In this document: in pieces, positions 6,215 through 54,248 of the stretch
How the letters are laid out: every line of letters begins with the position of its first letter
How positions within the stretch are numbered: the stretch's first letter is position 1
DNA from: Escherichia coli
GTDB taxonomy: Bacteria; Pseudomonadota; Gammaproteobacteria; Enterobacterales; Enterobacteriaceae
Assembly: GCF_030013595.1 (NCBI RefSeq)
Contig: NZ_CP122768.1
Reading direction: 5' to 3' (one strand)
Length of the DNA: 64,000 nucleotides
Translations under genes and position numbers: made by a program
Notes under the pieces: model-generated
Told to the model about the DNA's origin: nothing
Database searches by the model: none
What the model saw: the letters and a program-made list of their open reading frames with translations, nothing else

Positions 6215-7537
6215 TCAGAACAGCGTTAAACCAATGACGAAAATGACGCCGGAGAAGAGCAGGGCAGTGATGCAATAGCCCATGATGTCGCGGACACCGA
6301 GTCCGGCGATTGCCAGTGCTGGCAGCGCCCAGAATGGTTGTGCCATGTTCATCCATTGCTCGCCGTAGGCGATCGCCATTACCGATTTACCGAGATCAGC
6401 GCCCAGCGCCTGGGCTGCGGGTATCACGAAAGGTCCCTGAATAACCCAGTGACCGCCGCCAGACGGAACGGCGAAGTTAATCAGTGCAGAACTAAAAAAG
6501 GTCATTACCGGGAAGGTGTCTTTGTTCGCAACATTGATGAAGAATTCGGTAATGAGTCCGCCCAGACCGGAATGCTCCATCATCAGTTGGATGCCAGCGT
6601 AGAAGGGGAATTGCACCAGAATACCGGCAGTACTGCGTGCTGCCGCGCTGATAGCACGCATATAAGCCATTGGCGTTTTATGTAGCAGCAGACCCGCAAT
6701 CATAAACATCAGGTTGACGGTATTGATGGTGATGTTGAAGCCATGTTCGCTGAAGTACATCGCAAGGTAAGCGATACCGAGTGCGCCGATGATCAACGTC
6801 AGAATGCGGCTTTCTTCCAGTCGCTCGGATGGTGGGGCATCTTTCGGTAGCTGCTTTTGGAAATCAGCCTCTTCCATGAGTAGTTTCGGATCGATACTCA
6901 CCACGTCAGACGGTTTTGGCATCATCATGCGGGTGATAAATGGCATCACCACAATCAACGCCACAGTGATGAAAATGTTAAAACCACTGAACAGAGTATC
7001 GCCCACCGGGATCAGCCCGGCGATATGCTCAACCGGGTTGCCCGGTGTTGCAGCCAACAGAGGCATTGAGCCAGAGAAACCGCCACCCCAGGTGAGAAAA
7101 CCAATGTAGGCGCAGGCAATGAGCAACGGATAATCAGAACCGGGTACTCGGCGGGCGACTTCACGGGCAAACATTGCGCCGACAACCAAACCAAATCCCC
7201 AGTTGATGACACAAGCGACTGAACCGAAGAAAGTAACCAGCATGACGCCCTGTACGGGCGTCTTTGCGGCGGAGGCGGCAGTACGCAGCAAACTTTTTAC
7301 CGGAGCAGAGCTGGCAAGGGCATGACCGGTAACGATGATAAGCGCCATCTGCATACCAAACGCCAGCAAGTTCCAGAAACCGTCACCCCACATTTTCACC
7401 ATGCTGATCGGCGTTTGTGGTGTTAACCAAAGCGCGATCACGAAAGTTAGCAATGTCAGCAACATGGCAAAGATCAGTGGATCGGGAAGCCACCGGCTGA
7501 CAAAACGCGTCATAAAACGCGATATGCGACCAATCAT
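6215..7537 (-). CDS. atoE: short-chain fatty acid transporter
   Basis: 440 aa polytopic membrane protein between atoA and atoB. Confidence 0.9.
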   Translation of the reverse strand: MIGRISRFMTRFVSRWLPDPLIFAMLLTLLTFVIALWLTPQTPISMVKMWGDGFWNLLAFGMQMALIIVTGHALASSAPVKSLLRTAASAAKTPVQGVMLVTFFGSVACVINWGFGLVVGAMFAREVARRVPGSDYPLLIACAYIGFLTWGGGFSGSMPLLAATPGNPVEHIAGLIPVGDTLFSGFNIFITVALIVVMPFITRMMMPKPSDVVSIDPKLLMEEADFQKQLPKDAPPSERLEESRILTLIIGALGIAYLAMYFSEHGFNITINTVNLMFMIAGLLLHKTPMAYMRAISAAARSTAGILVQFPFYAGIQLMMEHSGLGGLITEFFINVANKDTFPVMTFFSSALINFAVPSGGGHWVIQGPFVIPAAQALGADLGKSVMAIAYGEQWMNMAQPFWALPALAIAGLGVRDIMGYCITALLFSGVIFVIGLTLF

Positions 7538-8184
7538 AAATCACCCCGTTGCGTATTCAGATCGGCGGCGACTTCAAACCGAGCTTCTGTTTTGGCACGC
7601 ACGGTGGCTAAATCACACCCGTCGGCAATTTCGGTGAGCCACATTTTGCCGTCAATAAAACGAAAGACAGCCAGTTCAGTAACCAGCATATGCACCGCAT
7701 GTTGCGCAGTGAGTGGCATGGTGCAGCGGCGCAAAATTTTTGCTGAACCATCTTTGGCACAATGTTCCATGGCGATGATCACTTTGCGCGACCCGGTCAC
7801 CAGATCCATCGCGCCACCCATACCGGGCACCATTTTCCCAGGCACTACCCAGTTCGCGAGGTTTGCTTCTTCGTCTACTTGCAAACCGCCGAGCACGCAG
7901 GCATCAATATGACCGCCGCGGATTAGCGCAAATGACATGGCGCTATCAAACATGGCTGCACCGGGTAAAACACCGCACGGTTGCCCGCCAGCGTTCACCA
8001 GATCTGGATGCGCTGTCGTGACCGGGCCTAAACCGAGGAAGCCGTTTTCCGATTGCAGAGTGATATGAATACCCTCCGGTAAATAATTGGCGACCATTGT
8101 GGGTAAACCGATCCCTAAGTTAACGATGTCACCATCACGAAGCTCTTGCGCCACACGGCGCGCAATACGTTGTTTCGCATCCAT
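7534..8184 (-). CDS. atoA: acetate CoA-transferase subunit beta
   Basis: 216 aa CoA-transferase subunit, overlapping stop/start with atoE. Confidence 0.92.
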   Translation of the reverse strand: MDAKQRIARRVAQELRDGDIVNLGIGLPTMVANYLPEGIHITLQSENGFLGLGPVTTAHPDLVNAGGQPCGVLPGAAMFDSAMSFALIRGGHIDACVLGGLQVDEEANLANWVVPGKMVPGMGGAMDLVTGSRKVIIAMEHCAKDGSAKILRRCTMPLTAQHAVHMLVTELAVFRFIDGKMWLTEIADGCDLATVRAKTEARFEVAADLNTQRGDL

Positions 8185-33378: not shown

Positions 33379-33981
33379 ATGGGAAATTCTGACCGTAAGC
33401 CTGGTCTGATTAAGCGCCTGTGGAAATGGTGGCGTACTCCCAGCCGTCTGGCGCTGGGGACGCTGCTGTTGATCGGCTTTGTTGGCGGCATCGTCTTCTG
33501 GGGCGGCTTTAACACCGGGATGGAAAAAGCCAATACCGAAGAGTTCTGCATTAGCTGCCACGAAATGCGTAACACGGTGTATCAGGAATACATGGATTCC
33601 GTGCACTACAACAACCGTAGCGGCGTTCGTGCGACCTGTCCGGATTGTCACGTTCCGCACGAGTTTGTGCCGAAGATGATACGCAAGCTCAAAGCAAGTA
33701 AAGAGCTGTATGGTAAAATTTTTGGCGTTATTGACACGCCGCAGAAATTTGAAGCTCATCGCCTGACGATGGCACAGAATGAGTGGCGGCGCATGAAGGA
33801 CAATAACTCGCAGGAGTGCCGTAACTGTCACAACTTCGAGTATATGGATACAACCGCCCAGAAATCGGTTGCCGCGAAGATGCATGACCAGGCGGTGAAA
33901 GATGGGCAAACCTGTATTGATTGCCATAAAGGGATAGCGCACAAGCTGCCCGATATGCGCGAAGTCGAGCCAGGTTTTTAA
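33379..33981 (+). CDS. napC: tetraheme cytochrome c NapC
   Basis: 200 aa, N-terminal TM anchor, four CxxCH motifs. Confidence 0.94.
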   Translation: MGNSDRKPGLIKRLWKWWRTPSRLALGTLLLIGFVGGIVFWGGFNTGMEKANTEEFCISCHEMRNTVYQEYMDSVHYNNRSGVRATCPDCHVPHEFVPKMIRKLKASKELYGKIFGVIDTPQKFEAHRLTMAQNEWRRMKDNNSQECRNCHNFEYMDTTAQKSVAAKMHDQAVKDGQTCIDCHKGIAHKLPDMREVEPGF

Positions 33982-33993
33982 CAGGGTTATTGC

Positions 33994-34617
33994 GTGGGTA
34001 TGCTTGAAGCCAGAGAGTTACTTTGCGAGCGGGATGAACGAACCTTATTTAGTGGCTTGTCATTTACGCTGAACGCAGGAGAGTGGGTACAAATCACCGG
34101 TAGCAACGGCGCGGGGAAGACAACGCTTCTCCGTTTGCTGACGGGGTTGTCTCGCCCTGATGCGGGTGACGTTCTCTGGCAAGGGCAGCCCTTGCATCAG
34201 GTACGCGACAGCTACCATCAAAACCTGTTATGGATAGGCCATCAGCCGGGGATCAAAACCCGGCTGACGGCGTTAGAAAATCTGCACTTTTATCATCGCG
34301 ATGGCGATACCGCACAATGTCTGGAAGCCCTGGCGCAGGCCGGGCTTGCCGGATTCGAAGATATTCCGGTAAATCAACTTTCTGCCGGGCAACAACGCCG
34401 CGTCGCTTTAGCGCGTCTGTGGCTAACCCGTGCCACGTTATGGATCCTCGACGAGCCTTTTACCGCGATTGACGTTAACGGCGTCGATCGTCTGACCCAG
34501 CGTATGGCGCAGCATACGGAGCAGGGGGGGATTGTGATTCTGACTACCCACCAGCCGCTCAACGTTGCTGAAAGTAAAATTCGCCGCATTTCACTGACGC
34601 AAACGAGGGCCGCATGA
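33994..34617 (+). CDS. ccmA: heme exporter ATP-binding protein CcmA
   Basis: 207 aa ABC ATPase with Walker [13 protein letters not shown] start. Confidence 0.93.
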
Positions 34618-36261: not shown

Positions 36262-36737
36262 ATATTCGCCGTAAAAACCGCTTGTGGATTGCCTGTGCTG
36301 TGTTGGCAGGTTTGGCGCTGACCATCGGTCTGGTGCTGTATGCGCTGCGCTCGAATATCGATCTCTTTTATACGCCGGGGGAAATTCTCTACGGCAAGCG
36401 TGAAACTCAGCAGATGCCGGAAGTCGGTCAGCGTCTGCGCGTTGGCGGGATGGTGATGCCGGGTAGCGTGCAGCGCGATCCCAATTCGCTGAAAGTGACC
36501 TTCACCATTTACGATGCTGAAGGCTCAGTGGATGTTTCTTACGAAGGCATTTTGCCGGATCTGTTCCGTGAAGGGCAGGGCGTTGTGGTGCAGGGCGAGC
36601 TGGAAAAAGGCAATCATATCCTCGCGAAAGAAGTGCTGGCGAAACATGATGAAAACTACACGCCGCCAGAAGTTGAGAAAGCGATGGAAGCTAACCACCG
36701 TCGCCCGGCGAGTGTTTATAAGGACCCAGCATCATGA
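36258..36737 (+). CDS. ccmE: cytochrome c-type biogenesis heme chaperone CcmE
   Basis: 159 aa membrane-anchored protein. Confidence 0.93.
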
Positions 36738-48388: not shown

Positions 48389-48537
48389 CGTTTTTACTGG
48401 TTGCTACGTTGCCCAACGGCACTGACACAACATTCTGTTTTCATTTTTAACATTCCTGATTTTTTAATTCCTCACCTGCTGCACAGTGAAAATTTATGAA
48501 GTTAATAACAATATGATTTTAAATGTATTTTTAAGTA

Positions 48538-48858
48538 CTCACTTTTTAATCCTTATATATACGCAAAAGTGAGGTAAATAGTTAAGTTTTAGTTAATATC
48601 TTGCATGGTGTGTTTTTTAACCTACCTGTTATTTTTATTACCTCATTTCTATTAACTCACCATTCCTCACTTTTGTTCCTCACTTTTTATTATTCTTGTT
48701 CTGCTCCTCAGTCGTTTTCTTTATTGTTGTAATCTGTTGTTTTGCAATGTGTTTTTAACTCCTCACTTTTTGACCTATATACAGGTGAGAAAGTGAGGAG
48801 TGGCGTTGATTTTTTGTTAAATTACCCGCCATCCTCACTTTTGCTCCTCACTTTTTAC
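48538..48858. repeat. iteron array in AT-rich region (putative island replication origin)
   Basis: at least 8 copies of TCCTCACTTTT in both orientations directly after the replication gene stop. Confidence 0.75.
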
Positions 48859-50270
48859 AGTGGGCGCACATAATCACCGTCAATAGCGATTACGCCGTCG
48901 CTTTCCAGCTTGTACAGCCAGCGCCGGAAGTGTTTCATCTCATACCCCAGCTTTTTCATATCATCGCGGAGAAGGGCGATAGTGCACGCCTCCCCGTGTG
49001 CTGTTCGCGTTCTGATGCACTGCCATAGCGCAGCGTGATTTTCCGTCTTGTTCCCGGCCTCCTCGATGCGTTCCAGTTCAACAGGTGGGCGCGGCTTATC
49101 CACAACCACCAGCGACGTGATTAACTCCCCGTCAGTGTCGGTAAAAAGCTCCACCACGCGTAAATCATATGCAGCCTCTTTCAGTTCCTCCGCGTCCTTC
49201 ATTTTGGTGCAGGAGATAACCAGGGCTTCACTGTCCGCACCTTCACGGCGAATACGGTATTCAGCGTCCAGAGATGCACGAAATGCACTGGAACCACGCG
49301 CCCCTTTTGTTTCATCCTTGCCGGAATGGTGAACCACCAGTACCGTGGCCCCTGTGCGTCGTTTCAGTTCGTCACATCCACGGATAAACGCCCCCATATC
49401 CCGCGCGTCATTTTCATCATTACCGCCAAAGCAACGCGCCAGCGTATCCAGAATAATCATGCGTACCGGTTTACCCGTTTCCCGTTCAACCTGACGGGAA
49501 GCGATGACCATTTCATCAACATCAAGCGGGACCGCCGGAAAAATCGGGCGGTTTACCAGGTACAGATTTTTCACCCGTTCATCATTAACGATTTCCCATG
49601 CTTTGATACGACGAGGAACACCGATCCCGCCCTCACCAACGACATACATAACCGCACCATGTACAACCCTGCGACCTCCCCAGTGGCGACCAGTGGCAAC
49701 ATGACACGCCCAGGAACACGCGAGGAACGATTTATAGGAACCGCTCGCGCCGTATGTGCTGCACAACGAATTAGCCGGAATCACGCCCTTAACGACATAA
49801 TCAAGCTGTGTGTCGTATCCTGCAGATCCAATACTCATTGGTAGCGTGGTTTTTCGCTGGCTGTATTGCTCGTCAGTAAGTATTTCCCCGCGCTCTGCCT
49901 GTTCGCGGATCCGTTGCAGGTAGTCGTGCCAGTTCTCCAGCTTCTGGCTGTGCATTCCCTCAGGGTAATAATTCGCATCCCGTACACCTGCCGCCGCCAG
50001 TTTTTGCCCGATGGCATTAATATTTGACGGCTTGATGTGGCCTGCCTTGTACAGCCGGACACAATAGCGACCATCGTCGATAATTTTCAGGTCTGCCAGT
50101 TCGTCAAGCTGGCTGTCTCCCAGCCATACAGGCGGAACATTGTCGCCAGCAAGTCGCCCGTCCTGTTCCTGCCATTGTTTCGCGTGCGCCCAGGCATCAC
50201 TACCCGCAAAAATAATGACTTCGGTCATTTTGTCGTGTGGCTGTTTTTTTAAGTTCGGTGCCAGTTTCAT
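48855..50270 (-). CDS. replication initiator ATPase/helicase (RecA-fold, primase-associated type)
   Basis: 471 aa with Walker A GASGSYKS and Walker B-like RMIILDTL; followed by iterons. Confidence 0.7.
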   Translation of the reverse strand: MKLAPNLKKQPHDKMTEVIIFAGSDAWAHAKQWQEQDGRLAGDNVPPVWLGDSQLDELADLKIIDDGRYCVRLYKAGHIKPSNINAIGQKLAAAGVRDANYYPEGMHSQKLENWHDYLQRIREQAERGEILTDEQYSQRKTTLPMSIGSAGYDTQLDYVVKGVIPANSLCSTYGASGSYKSFLACSWACHVATGRHWGGRRVVHGAVMYVVGEGGIGVPRRIKAWEIVNDERVKNLYLVNRPIFPAVPLDVDEMVIASRQVERETGKPVRMIILDTLARCFGGNDENDARDMGAFIRGCDELKRRTGATVLVVHHSGKDETKGARGSSAFRASLDAEYRIRREGADSEALVISCTKMKDAEELKEAAYDLRVVELFTDTDGELITSLVVVDKPRPPVELERIEEAGNKTENHAALWQCIRTRTAHGEACTIALLRDDMKKLGYEMKHFRRWLYKLESDGVIAIDGDYVRPL

Positions 50271-50566
50271 TTTGTGCCCCTGAATGCGTTAATCATGTTT
50301 TTCATTTTCTGAATATTTGCCCGTGCCTTTGCGTTGCTGGTGGGCTGTTTGCGTGGTGTGGCCTGTATCAGTGAAAAATCACGCCGGAACTGATAAACAG
50401 GCATCACGCAGTCGTAGCTGTACCCATCACGGCGGTAAGTAACGCACCGTCCGGCAATACTTTTAATCGTTACCGTGCCGCCGTAGTTATCCCGGAAAAT
50501 ATCGCCGGGGCGGATTTCAGGCCGAGGGAGACCACTGGCAGTAAAGCCAGAATTTTTCTTTTTCAT
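50267..50566 (-). CDS. hypothetical protein
   Basis: 99 aa ORF, start overlaps upstream gene stop (operon). Confidence 0.5.
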   Translation of the reverse strand: MKKKNSGFTASGLPRPEIRPGDIFRDNYGGTVTIKSIAGRCVTYRRDGYSYDCVMPVYQFRRDFSLIQATPRKQPTSNAKARANIQKMKNMINAFRGTK

Positions 50567-50570
50567 GGTT

Positions 50571-50771
50571 TTATTTTCCTGTCAGCAGTTCCGGTTTTAT
50601 TTCCGCACGAATACAGAGTTCAGAAAAAAATTCAGGAGAACCAACAATCTCATTACTTTTCAGTCGGCATTGTGATTTCACTTTCCCTTTATCCAGGTAA
50701 ACCAGTATGCGTCCGGTGAAATCATCTGGCACACTCAGGGTAATTGTCATTGTTGCTTGCTGATTATCCAT
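50571..50771 (-). CDS. hypothetical small protein, single copy of a ~55 aa repeated domain
   Basis: 66 aa; motif DDFTGRILVYLDKGKV...GSPEFFSEL homologous to both halves of the upstream 121 aa protein. Confidence 0.55.
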   Translation of the reverse strand: MDNQQATMTITLSVPDDFTGRILVYLDKGKVKSQCRLKSNEIVGSPEFFSELCIRAEIKPELLTGK

Positions 50772-51129
50772 GATTCACCCCCTGAATAACCTGATAACCG
50801 CAACTGGTCAGCAATTCGATAAATTCCGGCAGTGTTCCGAAACAGCAATCATCTCGCAGCCGTTCTCGGGATACTTCAACGCCGTTTTCGTAGTGACTCA
50901 CCATGCGTCCGGTAAAATGCAGATCATCATCGTGATGGCTCGTTAACGGCTTAATCAGTCGCGCACGTTCTGCCAGCTCCAGCAATGCTTCAACGCTTCC
51001 GGCAATTGCACCATCCGGCAGGTGATAATTACTTGCCACGCGTCCATTCTCCACGTTAACCAGTAGCTGCCCGGTGAATTTCTCATCAAACTGAATGCTG
51101 TTAAGGTCAGAAATTGACAGGTTAATCAT
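50764..51129 (-). CDS. hypothetical protein, tandem duplication of the same ~55 aa domain
   Basis: 121 aa; EKFTGQLLVNVENGRV...GSVEALLEL and LHFTGRMVSHYENGVEV...GTLPEFIELL. Confidence 0.55.
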   Translation of the reverse strand: MINLSISDLNSIQFDEKFTGQLLVNVENGRVASNYHLPDGAIAGSVEALLELAERARLIKPLTSHHDDDLHFTGRMVSHYENGVEVSRERLRDDCCFGTLPEFIELLTSCGYQVIQGVNHG

Positions 51130-51325
51130 GGCGTACCTCCTGGCGAATACGGGCAGCGAATACCATCACGCAGCCATCAGGAGATTGCTGACGCGCTTCC
51201 TGTTCGCTGGTGGCCTCAATGGTAATCACGCGCGGTTGTGCCGTGCTCAGGGCGATAAAACGCCAGATGTATTTATTCAGGTTGTGCGAGTCCCGCCCTT
51301 GCGGGTGTGTGGTATGATTTCTCAT
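51122..51325 (-). CDS. hypothetical small protein, first gene of island operon
   Basis: 67 aa with SD gaggt before ATG at 51325; overlaps next gene start (ATGATTAA). Confidence 0.45.
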   Translation of the reverse strand: MRNHTTHPQGRDSHNLNKYIWRFIALSTAQPRVITIEATSEQEARQQSPDGCVMVFAARIRQEVRHD

Positions 51326-51420
51326 AGCTACCTCGATACTCTTTCTATCGTTGGTGGTTAGAAGCCCCGTTACTGCTCCAACAGTGCGGGGTTTCGTCGT
51401 TTCTGTGCCTTGCATTAACA

Positions 51421-51505
51421 AGGTGTAAGACACAATGTAAAATACAAGTGTCTTACACGTCAAGCCTTCAAAATAATTTTTTTTCGTGTATATTGTCTTA
51501 CACCA
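51421..51505. promoter_or_regulatory. operator cluster: three copies of GTGTAAGACAC / GTGTCTTACAC
   Basis: ggtgtaagacac (51421), gtgtcttacacg (51449), ttgtcttacacc (51493) between divergent island transcription units. Confidence 0.6.
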
Positions 51506-51524
51506 ACAACATAAGGAGTTAGAC

Positions 51525-51704
51525 ATGGCAACAGGTCCAAAGAATGCAAAATCACAATCTGTAACTGCACGTATTGCCCATGAAATTATTGAAGGCATGG
51601 AAAACGTGAAAGAAGAAGGCGAAAGTACAGGGCAGTTTATAAGTGCAGCCATGCGCGGCGAGATCAAACGCCGCCAGCGCCGCAAGGCCAAAGAGCAGGA
51701 ATAG
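51525..51704 (+). CDS. small DNA-binding regulator, ribbon-helix-helix-like (candidate island repressor)
   Basis: 59 aa from MATGPKN with RBS aaggag; SVTARIAHEIIEGM resembles an RHH beta-strand/helix; divergent from operon. Confidence 0.5.
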   Translation: MATGPKNAKSQSVTARIAHEIIEGMENVKEEGESTGQFISAAMRGEIKRRQRRKAKEQE

Positions 51705-51986: not shown

Positions 51987-52193
51987 TTACGCAGCCGTTC
52001 CGCGCGCTTCTTCCTCGCGCTCTTTCAGCCAGGCCAGCACTTCATCTTCATACCAGCCAACACGACGCAGACCGATTTTGAATCCTTTCGGGAATTTTCC
52101 GGCGTTGATCATGTCCTGTAGCGAACTGTCTGCCTTGATGCGCAGAATATTTTTTACTTCCTGACGGGTAAGAATTTTTCTGATTACTTCCAT
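51987..52193 (-). CDS. alpA: AlpA-family phage regulatory protein (excisionase/activator-like)
   Basis: 68 aa; ...GKFPKGFKIGLRRVGWYEDEVLAWL matches the AlpA HTH signature. Confidence 0.75.
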   Translation of the reverse strand: MEVIRKILTRQEVKNILRIKADSSLQDMINAGKFPKGFKIGLRRVGWYEDEVLAWLKEREEEARGTAA

Positions 52194-52720: not shown

Positions 52721-53962
52721 TTATACGGCACGGATACCCCTTTTACCACTGGCTATGGTCACTCCAGTTGCTGCGGCCTCTACAAATTCCCCCCACCAGC
52801 GCATAAGCACCACGCGCTTTTCCAGGTAGTTACTTCGGTTATATGCTCGCCTTACCTCGTTCGTGTCCACGTGTGCGAGTGCGGCCTCGATTACGTCCGG
52901 CTCGAATCCTTCCTCGTTCGCTGCTGTACTGAATATGGCGCGTAATCCGTGAGACACCAGCACACCAGCGTAACCCATCCGGCGTAATGCAGCGTTAGCG
53001 GTCTGGCTGCTCATTGGTAGCATTGGATTTTTAAGGCTGGGAAAAACATGTTCCCTGTGTGCGCTGATTGGCTTCATGGTTTCCAGTACAGCCATAGCCT
53101 GACCGCAAAGGGGGATCACATGGTCACGGCGCATCTTCATGCGTCCGGCTGGAATCGTCCAGGTTTCGGCATCGAGATCTATTTCTTCCCAGCGTGCGGC
53201 GGCTGCTTCGGCTGGGCGTGCTACGGTCAACAGTTGCCACTCGATCAGCAATCTGGTTTGCCGTTCTATGCTGGCGACCGATAAATCGTGCATTAGCTGC
53301 GGTAGCTGTTCCGGTCGGATGGTTGGCATGTGCTTTTTGGTGGGTGAGGGAAATGCCTTGCGGACGTTAGCAGCGGTGTTGATGTCAATCAGCCCACTGT
53401 TGGCGGCAAAATCCATCACTTCATTGATGCGCTGCAAAACGCGTTTCAGTGTTTCCAGGTTGCCGCGTGCTTTAATGGGGGTGAGTATCTCAACAAAGCG
53501 GCGAGCGGTGAGGGTATCTATTGGCGTGTTTCCGATGTACGGGAATACGTATTTTTCCAGGGATCGCCAGATATCCTTAATCGTGTTGTAAGCCAGATTC
53601 TGGCCTTTTTTCATCTCGTACCAGTCCGAGGCAACTTTTTCGAACGTGTTGCCCTTTTTCCGACTCTCTGCTTCACGTTTCCGGCGTTCGTGGTCCTGTG
53701 GGTCAACTCCCTTCGCTATGAGTGACCTGTATTCATTCCGTCGTTCTCTGGCATCGGACAGGGAAACATCATTCAGCGATCCGAGGCTGATGATAGTCCG
53801 TTTTTTATCTGCCGGGCGGTAGTACGTAAAACGCCAGATTTTTGATCCGGAGGGTTTCACCAGAAGAAATAATCCTCCGCCATCCTGCAGGGTGTATTCC
53901 TTTTCCCCTGGTCGTGCGTTTTTGATCTCCGTAATAGTTAGTGGGGTGGTTTTTCGTGCCAT
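52721..53962 (-). CDS. int: tyrosine-type site-specific integrase (P4-like)
   Basis: 413 aa; N-terminal arm-binding-like domain, C-terminal catalytic region with HGLRA...RRAYNRSNY; adjacent to tRNA. Confidence 0.9.
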   Translation of the reverse strand: MARKTTPLTITEIKNARPGEKEYTLQDGGGLFLLVKPSGSKIWRFTYYRPADKKRTIISLGSLNDVSLSDARERRNEYRSLIAKGVDPQDHERRKREAESRKKGNTFEKVASDWYEMKKGQNLAYNTIKDIWRSLEKYVFPYIGNTPIDTLTARRFVEILTPIKARGNLETLKRVLQRINEVMDFAANSGLIDINTAANVRKAFPSPTKKHMPTIRPEQLPQLMHDLSVASIERQTRLLIEWQLLTVARPAEAAAARWEEIDLDAETWTIPAGRMKMRRDHVIPLCGQAMAVLETMKPISAHREHVFPSLKNPMLPMSSQTANAALRRMGYAGVLVSHGLRAIFSTAANEEGFEPDVIEAALAHVDTNEVRRAYNRSNYLEKRVVLMRWWGEFVEAAATGVTIASGKRGIRAV

Positions 53963-53978
53963 GTTTTTTTACTCATCG

Positions 53979-54053
53979 GTAGCTATATGCCTGGTCGTAG
54001 CTATACGGCTTTAGCTACACGCTGGACCGTATAGCTAAACGTGTAGCTAAAAA
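53979..54053 (+). repeat. cluster of five GTAGCTA(T/A)A-type repeats (putative integrase arm sites), including the 25 bp copy at 54029..54053
   Basis: gtagctata, cgtagctatacgg, ttagctacacg, gtatagctaaacg, gtgtagctaaaaa. Confidence 0.6.
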
Positions 54054-54171: not shown

Positions 54172-54248
54172 TGGTCGGCACGAGAGGATTTGAACCTCCG
54201 ACCCCCGACACCCCATGACGGTGCGCTACCAGGCTGCGCTACGTGCCG
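54172..54248 (-). tRNA. proL: tRNA-Pro (anticodon GGG)
   Basis: minus-strand 77 nt CGGCACGTAGCGCAGCCTGGTAGCGCACCGTCATGGGGTGTCGGGGGTCGGAGGTTCAAATCCTCTCGTGCCGACCA. Confidence 0.95.

What the first reader, a model, noticed from the sequence alone, without database searches (positions are those of the whole stretch)
50571..51129. Adjacent small proteins built from one ~55 aa domain present three times
The 121 aa protein contains two tandem copies of a domain with pattern F-T-G-x-[LIM]-[LV]-x-x-[LV]-[ED]-x-G-x-V ... G-[ST]-x-[EP]-x-[LF]-x-E-L. The next gene (66 aa) is a single copy of the same domain. Tandem paralogous small proteins at the head of a satellite operon suggest an interaction module, such as helper-phage protein binding or regulation. 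I do not recognise the domain.
Basis: seen in the sequence. Interest (0 to 1): 0.5.

Follow-up and report, generated by a model that had tools for sequence, protein, structure and literature searches.

The report
Rem-type antirepressor paralogues in a satellite
Two adjacent small genes in an E. coli phage satellite carry three copies of one ~50-residue domain that belongs to the Rem family, whose E. coli K-12 member switches off a prophage repressor, so the satellite probably uses them to wake up resident (helper) prophages.

Summary
The 121-aa ORF (50764-51129, minus strand) holds two copies and the 66-aa ORF (50571-50771) one copy of a ~50-residue domain (shuffle z 6.5-15). Both genes are under purifying selection.

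The domain is not unknown. It matches PHROG 340. Close homologues carry precomputed hits to Pfam PF27490 "Rem". A profile-profile comparison with the group of E. coli K-12 Rem gives 99.1% probability. Rem is a published antirepressor of the short, non-cleavable repressor DicA. It was found through similarity to the Salmonella Gifsy/Fels antirepressors, which bind repressor dimers.

The genes lie in a ~10-kb PICI-type satellite in the operon icd-like, 121 aa, 66 aa, DUF4222, RepA helicase, ori. They form a discrete swappable cassette (50573-51126) in a variable slot. About half of related satellites carry other small genes there. In distant relatives the domain is the C-terminal module of Bro-N, Rha, ORF6N and AntA proteins.

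Best reading: these are early-expressed antirepressors that inactivate repressors of resident or helper prophages, the functional analogue of P4 epsilon. The tandem protein may act as a single-chain dimer. Activity and targets are inferred, not shown.

The parts
50944..51129 (-). Copy 1 of the Rem-type domain (residues 1-62 of the 121-aa protein)
   Evidence: Pairwise z-scores. PHROG 340 E 9.5e-29 with 2 stretches. AF2 strands 20-27 and 30-37, short strand 42-44, helix 46-55.
50764..50943 (-). Copy 2 of the Rem-type domain (residues 63-121 of the 121-aa protein, plus stop)
   Evidence: strands 74-81 and 84-91, short strand 96-98, helix 100-109. Natural in-register chimeras of copy 1 and copy 2 exist.
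50571..50771 (-). 66-aa protein: one copy of the Rem-type domain. Its start overlaps the stop of the 121-aa gene by 8 nt (ATGGATAA).
   Evidence: PHROG 340 E 4.8e-17. AF2 pLDDT 83.3: hairpin 21-27/30-37, helix 46-55. hhalign of A6 vs the Rem group 99.1%.
50573..51126 (-). The replaceable cassette: both genes together, sitting in a variable slot
   Evidence: blastn against related satellites loses homology at window 51122-51127 and regains it at 50572-50591. L170 has a 100% identical DUF4222 but other genes in the slot.
51122..51325 (-). Icd-like (host cell division inhibitor-like) gene, first gene of the operon. Its stop overlaps the 121-aa start (ATGATTAA).
   Evidence: NCBIfam NF033153 E 9.2e-20. 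RefSeq annotation of the 98.8% identical locus.
51434..51463 (-). Sigma-70-like promoter candidate for the icd operon, in a divergent control region
   Evidence: Consensus scan, 9 of 12 matches. The total number of sites in the region is no higher than in shuffles, so this is weak evidence.
51486..51704 (+). Divergent YlcI/YnfO-family small gene
   Evidence: NCBIfam NF041551 E 2.1e-18.
50267..50566 (-). DUF4222 protein (99 aa, pI 10.5), conserved right flank of the slot. Overlaps the helicase start (ATGA).
   Evidence: Pfam PF13973 E 2.7e-24. pI.
48855..50270 (-). RepA-family (AAA_25) replicative helicase of the satellite
   Evidence: Pfam PF13481 E 2e-44. PHROG 2850.
48530..48856 (.). Iterons (TCCTCACTTTTT-like), the probable replication origin just 3' of the helicase gene
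   Evidence: Direct-repeat families D1 and D8. PICI origins lie downstream of pri/rep (PMC6092414, PMC10111431).
51987..52193 (-). AlpA-family regulator
   Evidence: Pfam PF05930 E 4.5e-08.
52721..53962 (-). Tyrosine integrase of the satellite
   Evidence: NCBIfam NF007246 E 2.8e-168; Pfam Phage_integrase.
54028..54053 (.). Right att direct repeat, about 120 nt from tRNA-Pro(GGG) at 54172-54248
   Evidence: 26-nt repeat, 96% identical to the copy at 44047-44072. tRNA.
44047..44072 (.). Left att direct repeat. The island is therefore about 10 kb.

Best explanation
The 121-aa protein (two tandem copies) and the 66-aa protein (one copy) are members of the Rem family of small prophage antirepressors (Pfam PF27490). 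They are encoded in a swappable cassette in the early icd-to-replicase operon of a ~10-kb PICI-type satellite of E. coli.

Proposed mechanism:
1. When the operon is switched on, the proteins bind one or more prophage repressors of the short, non-cleavable DicA/GfoR type, directly and stoichiometrically.
2. Binding takes the repressors off their operators.
3. This derepresses resident (helper) prophages independently of repressor cleavage.

This is the role epsilon plays for satellite P4 against the P2 C repressor. Epsilon sits at the equivalent position in the P4 left operon.

The tandem protein would act as a covalently linked dimer matching a repressor dimer. Gifsy antirepressor-repressor complexes are A2B2. 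Three diverged copies would widen the range of repressors hit.

Shown here: paralogy, family membership, operon position, cassette behaviour and the domain architectures of relatives.
Inferred: antirepressor activity, direct binding, the identity of the targets and the single-chain-dimer idea.
For: (1) Three significant copies under purifying selection.

(2) Family membership.
- PHROG 340 matches at E 1e-28 and 5e-17.
- Precomputed Pfam PF27490 hits on homologues 82% identical to the 121-aa protein (P0022, P0024).
- PF27490 is named 'Rem' on a two-copy Hafnia homologue.
- My domain profile, run against 1.84 billion proteins, retrieves P0319 at E 8.4e-4. P0319 is 64% identical to K-12 Rem.
- A second-round profile scores K-12 Rem at 37.3 bits.
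- hhalign of the domain alignment A6 against the Rem-group alignment A7 gives probability 99.1%, E 1.8e-18, over 54 columns in register. The control against the HicB N-terminal domain gave 0.5%.

(3) Function of the family.
- Ectopic Rem derepresses the DicA-controlled dicB promoter 165-fold (PMC10448788).
- Rem was found from the GfoA/FsoA antirepressors.
- Those antirepressors bind repressors, release them from DNA and form apparent A2B2 complexes (PMC3121763).

(4) Domain architectures. The domain is the C-terminal module of Bro-N, Rha, ORF6N and AntA proteins, which are the classical antirepressor-type architectures.

(5) Position.
- The layout AlpA, Icd-like, [cassette], DUF4222, replicase parallels P4 vis, cI/kil, epsilon, orf151, cnr, alpha.
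- Phage members sit in the early-left operon of phages with cleavable CI-like repressors. FsoA does the same in Fels-1.

(6) Accessory, specificity-like behaviour.
- The cassette is exchangeable, with sharp boundaries at the gene ends.
- Copy number varies from 0 to 3 among satellites.

(7) Composition. The proteins are acidic (pI 4.9, net charge -9 for the 121-aa protein). No conserved catalytic-type residues were seen. This fits a protein binder.
Against: - No experiment or complex prediction links these proteins to any repressor.
- Only one Rem-family member (K-12 Rem) has been tested, and direct Rem-DicA binding was not shown in that paper.
- Direct similarity to the Gifsy-1 ORF at the gfoA position is weak: 8.6 bits, hhalign probability 10%.
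- There is no LexA box at the operon promoter, unlike the Gifsy antirepressor operons.
- About half of related satellites lack the domain, so it is dispensable for the satellite life cycle.
- PICI induction in E. coli is described as helper-driven through alpA (PMC6092414), not satellite-driven.
- In phages the gene is always followed by an overlapping ParE-like gene. That would also fit an antitoxin-like role.
- The local Pfam copy lacks PF27490, so that HMM was not run on the window proteins themselves.
- Fold searches gave no match that could corroborate a mechanism.
Confidence: 0.55

Rival explanations
1. Antidote or chaperone for an adjacent small basic protein. The acidic domain proteins neutralise the product of a translationally coupled neighbouring gene, in the manner of a type II antitoxin. 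The partner would be the ParE-like protein in phages and DUF4222 or the Icd-like division inhibitor in satellites.
For: - In 79 of 80 phage loci the 84-aa member is followed by a 72-aa ParE_like gene (PF24732, E 2.6e-20, weak HigB similarity) that overlaps it by 29 nt.
- In the satellite the neighbours are basic (DUF4222 pI 10.5, Icd-like pI 9.3) and the domain proteins are acidic.
- The gene junctions are overlapping or 4 nt apart.
- K-12 rem lies next to relBE-hokD.
Against: - The supposed partners belong to unrelated families in the two contexts.
- L170 keeps a 100% identical DUF4222 and a 98.5% identical Icd without any copy of the domain.
- The phage loci are one closely related lineage (74-100% identity), so the adjacency is a single observation.
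- hhalign to the HicB antitoxin N-domain gives 0.5%.
- The one tested family member acts on a repressor, not on a toxin (PMC10448788).
Confidence: 0.12
2. Replication accessory factor. The proteins would be a Cnr-like regulator or loader that binds the RepA helicase or DUF4222 and tunes satellite replication. In P4, cnr sits just upstream of alpha.
For: The genes share a tightly coupled operon with DUF4222 and the RepA helicase, directly upstream of the ori iterons. P4 cnr occupies a comparable position.
Against: - Related satellites with the same DUF4222 and similar RepA lack the domain.
- Phage members lie in the early-left operon, far from the replication genes, whereas DUF4222 travels with replication genes without the domain.
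- There is no similarity to Cnr.
Confidence: 0.06
3. Modulator of Bro-N/Rha/ORF6N/AntA regulators. The free-standing domain would be the oligomerisation or partner-binding module of these proteins. It would act as a competitor or dominant-negative against full-length regulators of the helper or satellite, rather than binding a CI-type repressor.
For: - The domain is the C-terminal module of Bro-N, Rha, ORF6N and AntA proteins.
- PICIs have a dynamic zone of domain-swapping Bro-network genes between alpA and the replication genes (PMC10111431).
- Related islands carry AntA or ORF6N/ANT genes just upstream.
Against: - Several fusion proteins are singletons from short contigs, and P0051 could be a deletion product.
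- K-12 Rem works alone on a DicA-controlled promoter (PMC10448788).
- Antirepressor-type fusion partners fit the main explanation equally well.
Confidence: 0.12
4. Other early accessory function against the host or competitors, for example an anti-defence protein or an inhibitor of a host process, unrelated to repressors.
For: - The genes sit in a variable slot filled with alternative small genes of unknown function.
- The proteins are acidic and small, with variable N-termini.
- An accessory or immune hot spot next to the PICI pri gene has been described (PMC11364771).
Against: - No PADLOC hit.
- Homology to a tested antirepressor gives a more specific explanation.
Confidence: 0.1

Closest known systems
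Rem (b1561) of the E. coli K-12 Qin cryptic prophage; Pfam PF27490 'Rem'
   Same: - Same domain: hhalign 99.1%, reciprocal profile hits and precomputed PF27490 hits on close homologues.
- Small, free-standing, prophage-borne protein of Enterobacterales.
   Different: - K-12 Rem has an extra N-terminal hairpin plus one full domain. The window has a clean tandem duplication plus a third copy in a second gene.
- Rem lies in a lambdoid prophage near relBE-hokD. These genes lie in a satellite's early replication operon.
- Identity to Rem is low. BLASTP finds only an 18-residue stretch.
Gifsy/Fels small antirepressors GfoA, GfhA, GftA and FsoA of Salmonella (Lemire et al. 2011, PMC3121763)
   Same: - Small proteins that inactivate short, non-cleavable repressors by direct binding, and can act in trans on heteroimmune prophages.
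- FsoA lies in the early-left operon of a phage with a cleavable repressor, as the phage members of this family do.
- Rem was identified from them by PSI-BLAST.
   Different: - Direct similarity tested here is weak: the Gifsy-1 ORF after the dinI homologue scores 8.6 bits, with hhalign probability 10%.
- The Gifsy genes are LexA-controlled behind dinI. No LexA box is present here.
Epsilon (helper derepression protein) of satellite P4
   Same: - Same position in a satellite early operon, between the vis/alpA plus immunity/kil(icd) region and the replicase.
- Same proposed job: binding the helper's repressor.
   Different: No detectable sequence similarity. The resemblance is a functional and positional analogy only.
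Bro-N / KilA-N / Rha / ORF6N / AntA network of domain-shuffled phage regulators
   Same: The domain occurs as the C-terminal module of Bro-N, Rha, ORF6N and AntA proteins. PICIs carry a dynamic zone of such genes (PMC10111431).
   Different: The window proteins have no N-terminal DNA-binding domain. They are the bare module, present once or twice per protein.

Membership tests
Rem family (Pfam PF27490) | Match to the family's profile HMM | tested here: inconclusive
   - The local Pfam copy lacks PF27490, and no Pfam hit was found for the window proteins.
- Precomputed PF27490 hits exist on P0022 and P0024, both 82% identical to the 121-aa protein.
- A 'weak' PF27490:Rem hit exists on the Hafnia two-copy homologue.
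- The HMM itself was not run on the window proteins.
Rem family (Pfam PF27490) | Homology to the founding member, E. coli K-12 Rem | tested here: met
   - hhalign A6 vs A7 (K-12 Rem first): probability 99.1%, E 1.8e-18, 54 columns.
- The library-wide profile search retrieves P0319, the representative of the Rem cluster, at E 8.4e-4.
- A second-round HMM scores K-12 Rem at 37.3 bits.
- Caveat: the more distant rows of A7 were themselves found with my profile.
Rem family (Pfam PF27490) | Antirepressor activity: derepression of a DicA-type repressed promoter | not testable with these tools
   Known only for K-12 Rem: 165-fold derepression of dicBp (PMC10448788).
Gifsy-type small antirepressors (GfoA/GftA/FsoA) | Sequence homology to GfoA | tested here: inconclusive
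   - The Gifsy-1 ORF after the dinI homologue (STM2621.1n, 73 aa) is the second-best of 358 ORFs with the family HMM (E 0.039, 8.6 bits).
- It shows 36-42% identity over 36 residues to phage-type members.
- hhalign probability is 10%, though the alignment is in register.
- The identification of this ORF as gfoA rests on its position, as described in PMC3121763.
Gifsy-type small antirepressors (GfoA/GftA/FsoA) | LexA-controlled operon headed by a dinI homologue | tested here: not met
   - No CTGT-N8-ACAG site (up to 1 mismatch) lies near the operon promoter at 51325-51500.
- The operon starts with icd-like, not dinI.
- FsoA is also not LexA-controlled, so this feature is not universal in the group.
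Gifsy-type small antirepressors (GfoA/GftA/FsoA) | Direct binding to a short non-cleavable repressor dimer (A2B2 complex) | not testable with these tools
   PMC3121763. The structure tool returns no complex information.
P4 epsilon | Sequence homology to epsilon | tested here: not met
   hmmsearch and BLASTP against P4 epsilon, orf151 and cnr give nothing significant.
HicB-like antitoxin N-terminal domain | Profile homology to HicB N-domains | tested here: not met
PICI-type phage satellite (context) | ~10-15 kb island with int, alpA, a replication gene followed by ori iterons, att repeats, and a few morphogenesis or packaging genes, all in one direction | tested here: met
   - Int, AlpA, RepA helicase, ProQ/FinO, PerC and DUF2213.
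- Iterons at 48530-48856 and 26-nt att repeats 9981 nt apart.
- tRNA-Pro nearby.
- Mobilisation by a helper was not tested.

The most novel reading that the evidence does not exclude
A Gram-negative PICI actively wakes up its helper. The tandem 'single-chain dimer' Rem-type antirepressor and its single-copy paralogue would inactivate several heteroimmune DicA/GfoR-type repressors without the SOS response. The slot between icd and DUF4222 would then be a hot spot where satellites swap helper-specificity cassettes. This would reverse the usual picture, in which the helper induces the PICI, and extend the P4-epsilon strategy to PICIs by an unrelated protein family.
Probability: 0.3. Interest if true: 0.65.

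Novelty: new variant of a known kind. Interest (0 to 1): 0.45.

Why it matters
Every database source read here calls these proteins 'hypothetical' or 'prophage protein'. Linking them to the Rem/GfoA antirepressors turns them into a testable hypothesis: that E. coli PICI satellites carry their own helper-derepression module, in a swappable slot.

The cassette DNA is found in 398 of 5426 complete E. coli genomes.

If true, this would add satellites to the 'prophage crosstalk' network of trans-acting antirepressors. It would help explain which prophages a given island can exploit. It would also provide natural single-chain and chimeric variants for mapping how this small fold recognises repressors.

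Tried and rejected
- Pfam, NCBIfam and PADLOC scans of the two proteins, and of all members of alignment A3 at E up to 10, gave nothing.
- A PDB sequence search with the domain profile gave only chance hits to RNF4 and LOV domains.
- tblastn against phages gave weak hits. The hit under 'exodeoxyribonuclease VIII' is on the opposite strand from that gene, so I dismissed it.
- Structure prediction: the AF2 model of the 121-aa protein is mediocre (pLDDT 66.6). The single-domain model is good (pLDDT 83.3).
- HicB N-domain idea, from the shared beta-beta-beta-alpha order and a 'PD..G.T.EA' look: hhalign 0.5%, rejected.
- Rfam search for a C4/isrK-type immunity RNA upstream of icd: none at E up to 0.1.
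- P4 epsilon, orf151 and cnr homology: none.
- Search for a further divergent copy next to DUF4222 in Klebsiella phages: none.
- LexA box at the operon promoter: none.
- Plasmids: only 2 records carry the domain.
- Literature searches for DUF4222, PF27490 and phrog_340 found nothing functional.
- The Tai immune systems next to PICI pri are a different gene family. They are noted only for the hot-spot parallel.

Full report
**1. Observation**

The minus strand holds a 121-aa ORF at 50764-51129 and a 66-aa ORF at 50571-50771. I split the 121-aa protein at residue 62 and aligned the pieces locally with BLOSUM62.
- copy1/copy2: score 56
- copy1/66-aa protein: score 79
- copy2/66-aa protein: score 47

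The shuffle means were about 20 with sd about 4, giving z of 8.7, 15.1 and 6.5. None of 2000 shuffles reached the observed score.

Across 25-26 natural alleles, pN/pS is 0.24 for the 121-aa gene and 0.42 for the 66-aa gene. Both are therefore real, constrained coding genes.

**2. Context**

The window matches E. coli UMNF18 at 100% identity over the cassette. The genes lie in an island of about 10 kb, bounded by 26-nt direct repeats at 44047-44072 and 54028-54053, next to tRNA-Pro(GGG).

Reading the minus strand, the island encodes, in order:
- a tyrosine integrase (52721-53962)
- AlpA (51987-52193)
- an Icd-like protein (51122-51325, NF033153, E 9e-20)
- the 121-aa and 66-aa genes
- DUF4222 (50267-50566)
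- a RepA/AAA_25 helicase (48855-50270)
- ProQ/FinO, PerC and a DUF2213 protein

Iterons follow the helicase gene directly at 48530-48856. RefSeq annotation of a 98.8% identical locus agrees and calls both genes 'hypothetical protein'. This is the organisation of Gram-negative PICI satellites (PMC6092414, PMC10111431).

The operon is tightly coupled.
- icd stop and 121-aa start overlap (ATGATTAA).
- 121-aa stop and 66-aa start overlap (ATGGATAA).
- 4 nt separate the 66-aa gene from DUF4222.
- DUF4222 and the helicase overlap (ATGA).

A promoter-like site sits upstream of icd in a divergent region. A YlcI/YnfO-family gene lies on the other strand.

**3. The genes are a swappable cassette**

Among 80 IMG/VR satellites fetched with the domain, the usual arrangement is a two-copy gene followed by a one-copy gene. 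Loci with one copy, or with two single-copy genes, also occur. Icd, DUF4222 and RepA stay constant.

Among 80 satellites fetched with DUF4222 instead, about half have no copy at all. The stretch between icd and DUF4222 varies from 193 to 1254 nt.

blastn of the window against such satellites loses homology at window 51122-51127 and regains it at 50572-50591. These are exactly the outer ends of the two genes.

L170 is the clearest case. Its DUF4222 is 100% identical and its Icd 98.5% identical, yet the slot holds 78-aa and 82-aa helical proteins instead. The alternative occupants belong to PHROGs 5146, 2196, 3672, 1478, 24341 and 2512, all of unknown function.

The cassette DNA occurs in 398 of 5426 complete E. 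coli genomes, and 194 of these have at least 80% coverage.

Natural variants fuse copy 1 to copy 2, or copy 1 to the 66-aa protein, in register at several different points. Examples are P0046, P0033, P0038, P0048 and P0094. Several occur on multiple contigs. This fits a modular fold.

**4. What the domain is**

The local Pfam and NCBIfam copies give nothing. PHROG 340 (unknown function) matches both proteins, at E 9.5e-29 with two stretches and at E 4.8e-17.

Single-copy members of 76-89 aa occur in temperate phages of Klebsiella, Escherichia, Citrobacter, Salmonella and Enterobacter. They sit in the early-left operon between the CI-like repressor and int.

The exhaustive profile search of 1.84 billion representatives found only 134 clusters at E up to 1e-3. 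Every cluster for which an organism name was read comes from Enterobacterales. Hafnia, Cedecea, Serratia and Xenorhabdus are added to the genera above.

In some relatives the domain is the C-terminal module of a larger protein:
- Bro-N (P0234)
- Rha (P0313)
- ORF6N (P0315, a Xenorhabdus RefSeq protein)
- AntA (P0051)
- a DnaG-type zinc ribbon (Citrobacter koseri, 16 cluster members)

The decisive lead came from a Hafnia PICI-like island with the order ORF6N/ANT..., 94 aa, 120-aa two-copy protein, DUF4222, AAA_25, capsid, protease, portal. There the precomputed annotation names the family: PF27490 'Rem'. The same accession had appeared on two homologues 82% identical to the 121-aa protein.

I then tested the link to E. 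coli K-12 Rem (b1561, Qin prophage, 83 aa).
- One of my library-wide hits, P0319 (E 8.4e-4), is 64% identical to Rem.
- A second-round HMM scores Rem at 37.3 bits. It resolves Rem into an extra N-terminal hairpin plus one full domain.
- hhalign between my 54-sequence domain alignment and a Rem-group alignment gives 99.1% probability, E 1.8e-18, over 54 columns.
- The same method gave 0.5% for HicB, which I had suspected from the strand-strand-strand-helix order.

**5. What the family does**

Ragunathan et al. 2023 (PMC10448788) showed that ectopic Rem derepresses the DicA-controlled dicB promoter 165-fold. It causes filamentation dependent on DicB and DicF.

DicA is a short CI-like repressor that lacks the cleavage site. 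Rem was found by PSI-BLAST starting from the Salmonella antirepressors GfoA and FsoA.

Lemire et al. 2011 (PMC3121763) reported the following for those small proteins.
- They bind their repressors and remove them from DNA.
- They form complexes of apparent A2B2 size.
- They act in trans on heteroimmune prophages.
- FsoA lies in the early-left operon of Fels-1, a phage whose own repressor is cleavable.

The phage members of the present family sit in the same situation: early-left operon, with an HTH_3 plus Peptidase_S24 repressor.

My direct test against the Gifsy-1 ORF that follows the dinI homologue is only suggestive. It ranks second of 358 ORFs at 8.6 bits, and hhalign gives 10%, in register.

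**6. Mechanism proposed**

The two proteins are Rem-type antirepressors made early from the satellite's icd-to-replicase operon. They would bind and inactivate repressors of resident (helper) prophages.

Satellite P4 does this with epsilon. The epsilon gene sits at the equivalent place: vis, cI/kil, epsilon, orf151, cnr, alpha. There is no sequence similarity between epsilon and this domain.

Several features fit a protein-binding specificity module:
- the acidic composition
- the lack of conserved catalytic-type residues
- the antirepressor-type fusion partners
- the exchangeable-cassette behaviour

The tandem protein could be a single-chain version of the antirepressor dimer. The AF2 single-domain model (pLDDT 83.3) is a long hairpin plus a helix. 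It looks incomplete as a monomer, which fits an oligomer. This last step is inference.

**7. Caveats and rivals**

Nothing here shows binding or identifies a target.
- The operon has no LexA box.
- Half of related satellites lack the domain.
- E. coli PICIs are described as induced by their helper through alpA (PMC6092414).

In the one phage lineage sampled, the gene is followed in 79 of 80 loci by an overlapping ParE-like gene. K-12 rem lies beside relBE-hokD. An antidote role therefore cannot be excluded. However, the presumed partners differ between contexts, and L170 keeps identical neighbours without the domain.

A Cnr-like replication role is unlikely for the same reason. In addition, in phages DUF4222 travels with the replication genes without the domain.

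A competitor role against Bro-network regulators and a generic accessory or anti-defence role remain possible.

**8. Novelty**

The family is catalogued (PHROG 340, Pfam Rem) and one member has a published function. What is new here is a variant:
- a clean tandem duplication plus a third paralogue
- residence in a PICI early operon as an exchangeable cassette
- the implied satellite-to-helper derepression

Interest is moderate. The result converts 'hypothetical proteins' present in several percent of E. coli genomes into a specific hypothesis that is cheap to test.

Noticed in passing
window 50573-51126 and loci L170, L202, L225, L247: The stretch between icd-like and DUF4222 is a variable slot of 193-1254 nt. 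It is filled in different satellites by unrelated small genes (PHROGs 5146, 2196, 3672, 1478, 24341, 2512), all of unknown function. Translational coupling to icd is preserved in at least L170, L202, L225 and L247.
   Followed up: partly
proteins P0046, P0033, P0038, P0042, P0044, P0048, P0094 (homologues of window 50571-51129): Natural in-register chimeras fuse copy 1 to copy 2, or to the 66-aa protein, at several different junctions (FTG, AG, GSVE, within the helix). Some occur on several contigs. L084 fuses the domain to the tail of the 78-aa helical slot protein.
   Followed up: partly
L002 3418-4882; L085-L088; L090-L169: Klebsiella and E. coli temperate phages carry a conserved early-left cassette: 74 aa, 121 aa (unrelated, PHROG 1737), 84-aa Rem-type protein, 72-aa ParE_like (PF24732, overlapping by 29 nt), 146 aa. 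Gene callers often miss the ParE-like ORF.
   Followed up: partly
window 50267-50566; L085 1061-1249; L089 (P4) 7440-7895: DUF4222 sits immediately upstream of the replication gene both in satellites (RepA helicase) and in phages (HTH_36 initiator). P4 ORF151 shows a weak N-terminal resemblance to it (26% over 50 residues, E 0.2).
   Followed up: no
window 48530-48856: Five copies of a TCCTCACTTTTT-like iteron lie just 3' of the helicase gene. This is the probable satellite origin.
   Followed up: no
window 44913-45146: [quoted passage not shown] It could be a packaging or operator site.
   Followed up: no
window 51486-51704 (+) and 51415-51494: A YlcI/YnfO-family gene is transcribed divergently from the icd operon, with facing promoter-like sites. 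This may be the island's own switch.
   Followed up: no
L250/L251 (Citrobacter koseri): A 132-aa protein consists of a DnaG zinc ribbon plus the Rem-type domain. It lies in an int, AlpA, Bro-N island that is followed directly by lambda-like tail genes (L, K, I, J). The arrangement looks like a helper-embedded PICI.
   Followed up: no
L257 (Gifsy-1) 33513-34076 and 36665-36886: With the family HMM, the two best-scoring Gifsy-1 ORFs are STM2616 (187 aa, annotated as similar to an antirepressor; E 2.8e-4) and the 73-aa ORF after the dinI homologue, which is the gfoA position (E 0.039).
   Followed up: partly
PHROG 2512: This PHROG matches residues 33-111 of the 121-aa protein (E 1e-22). It also matches the unrelated-looking 78-aa and 77-aa slot proteins. 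It is probably a chimeric family built from fused or read-through ORFs.
   Followed up: no
window 41282-43873 (+), 40315-40992 (-), 39228-40280 (+), 54323-56083 (-): The flanking genes are an AIDA/pertactin-type autotransporter just left of the island, a NarL/LuxR-type response regulator, ccmH, and a YejM-like DUF3413/sulfatase protein to the right of tRNA-Pro.
   Followed up: no
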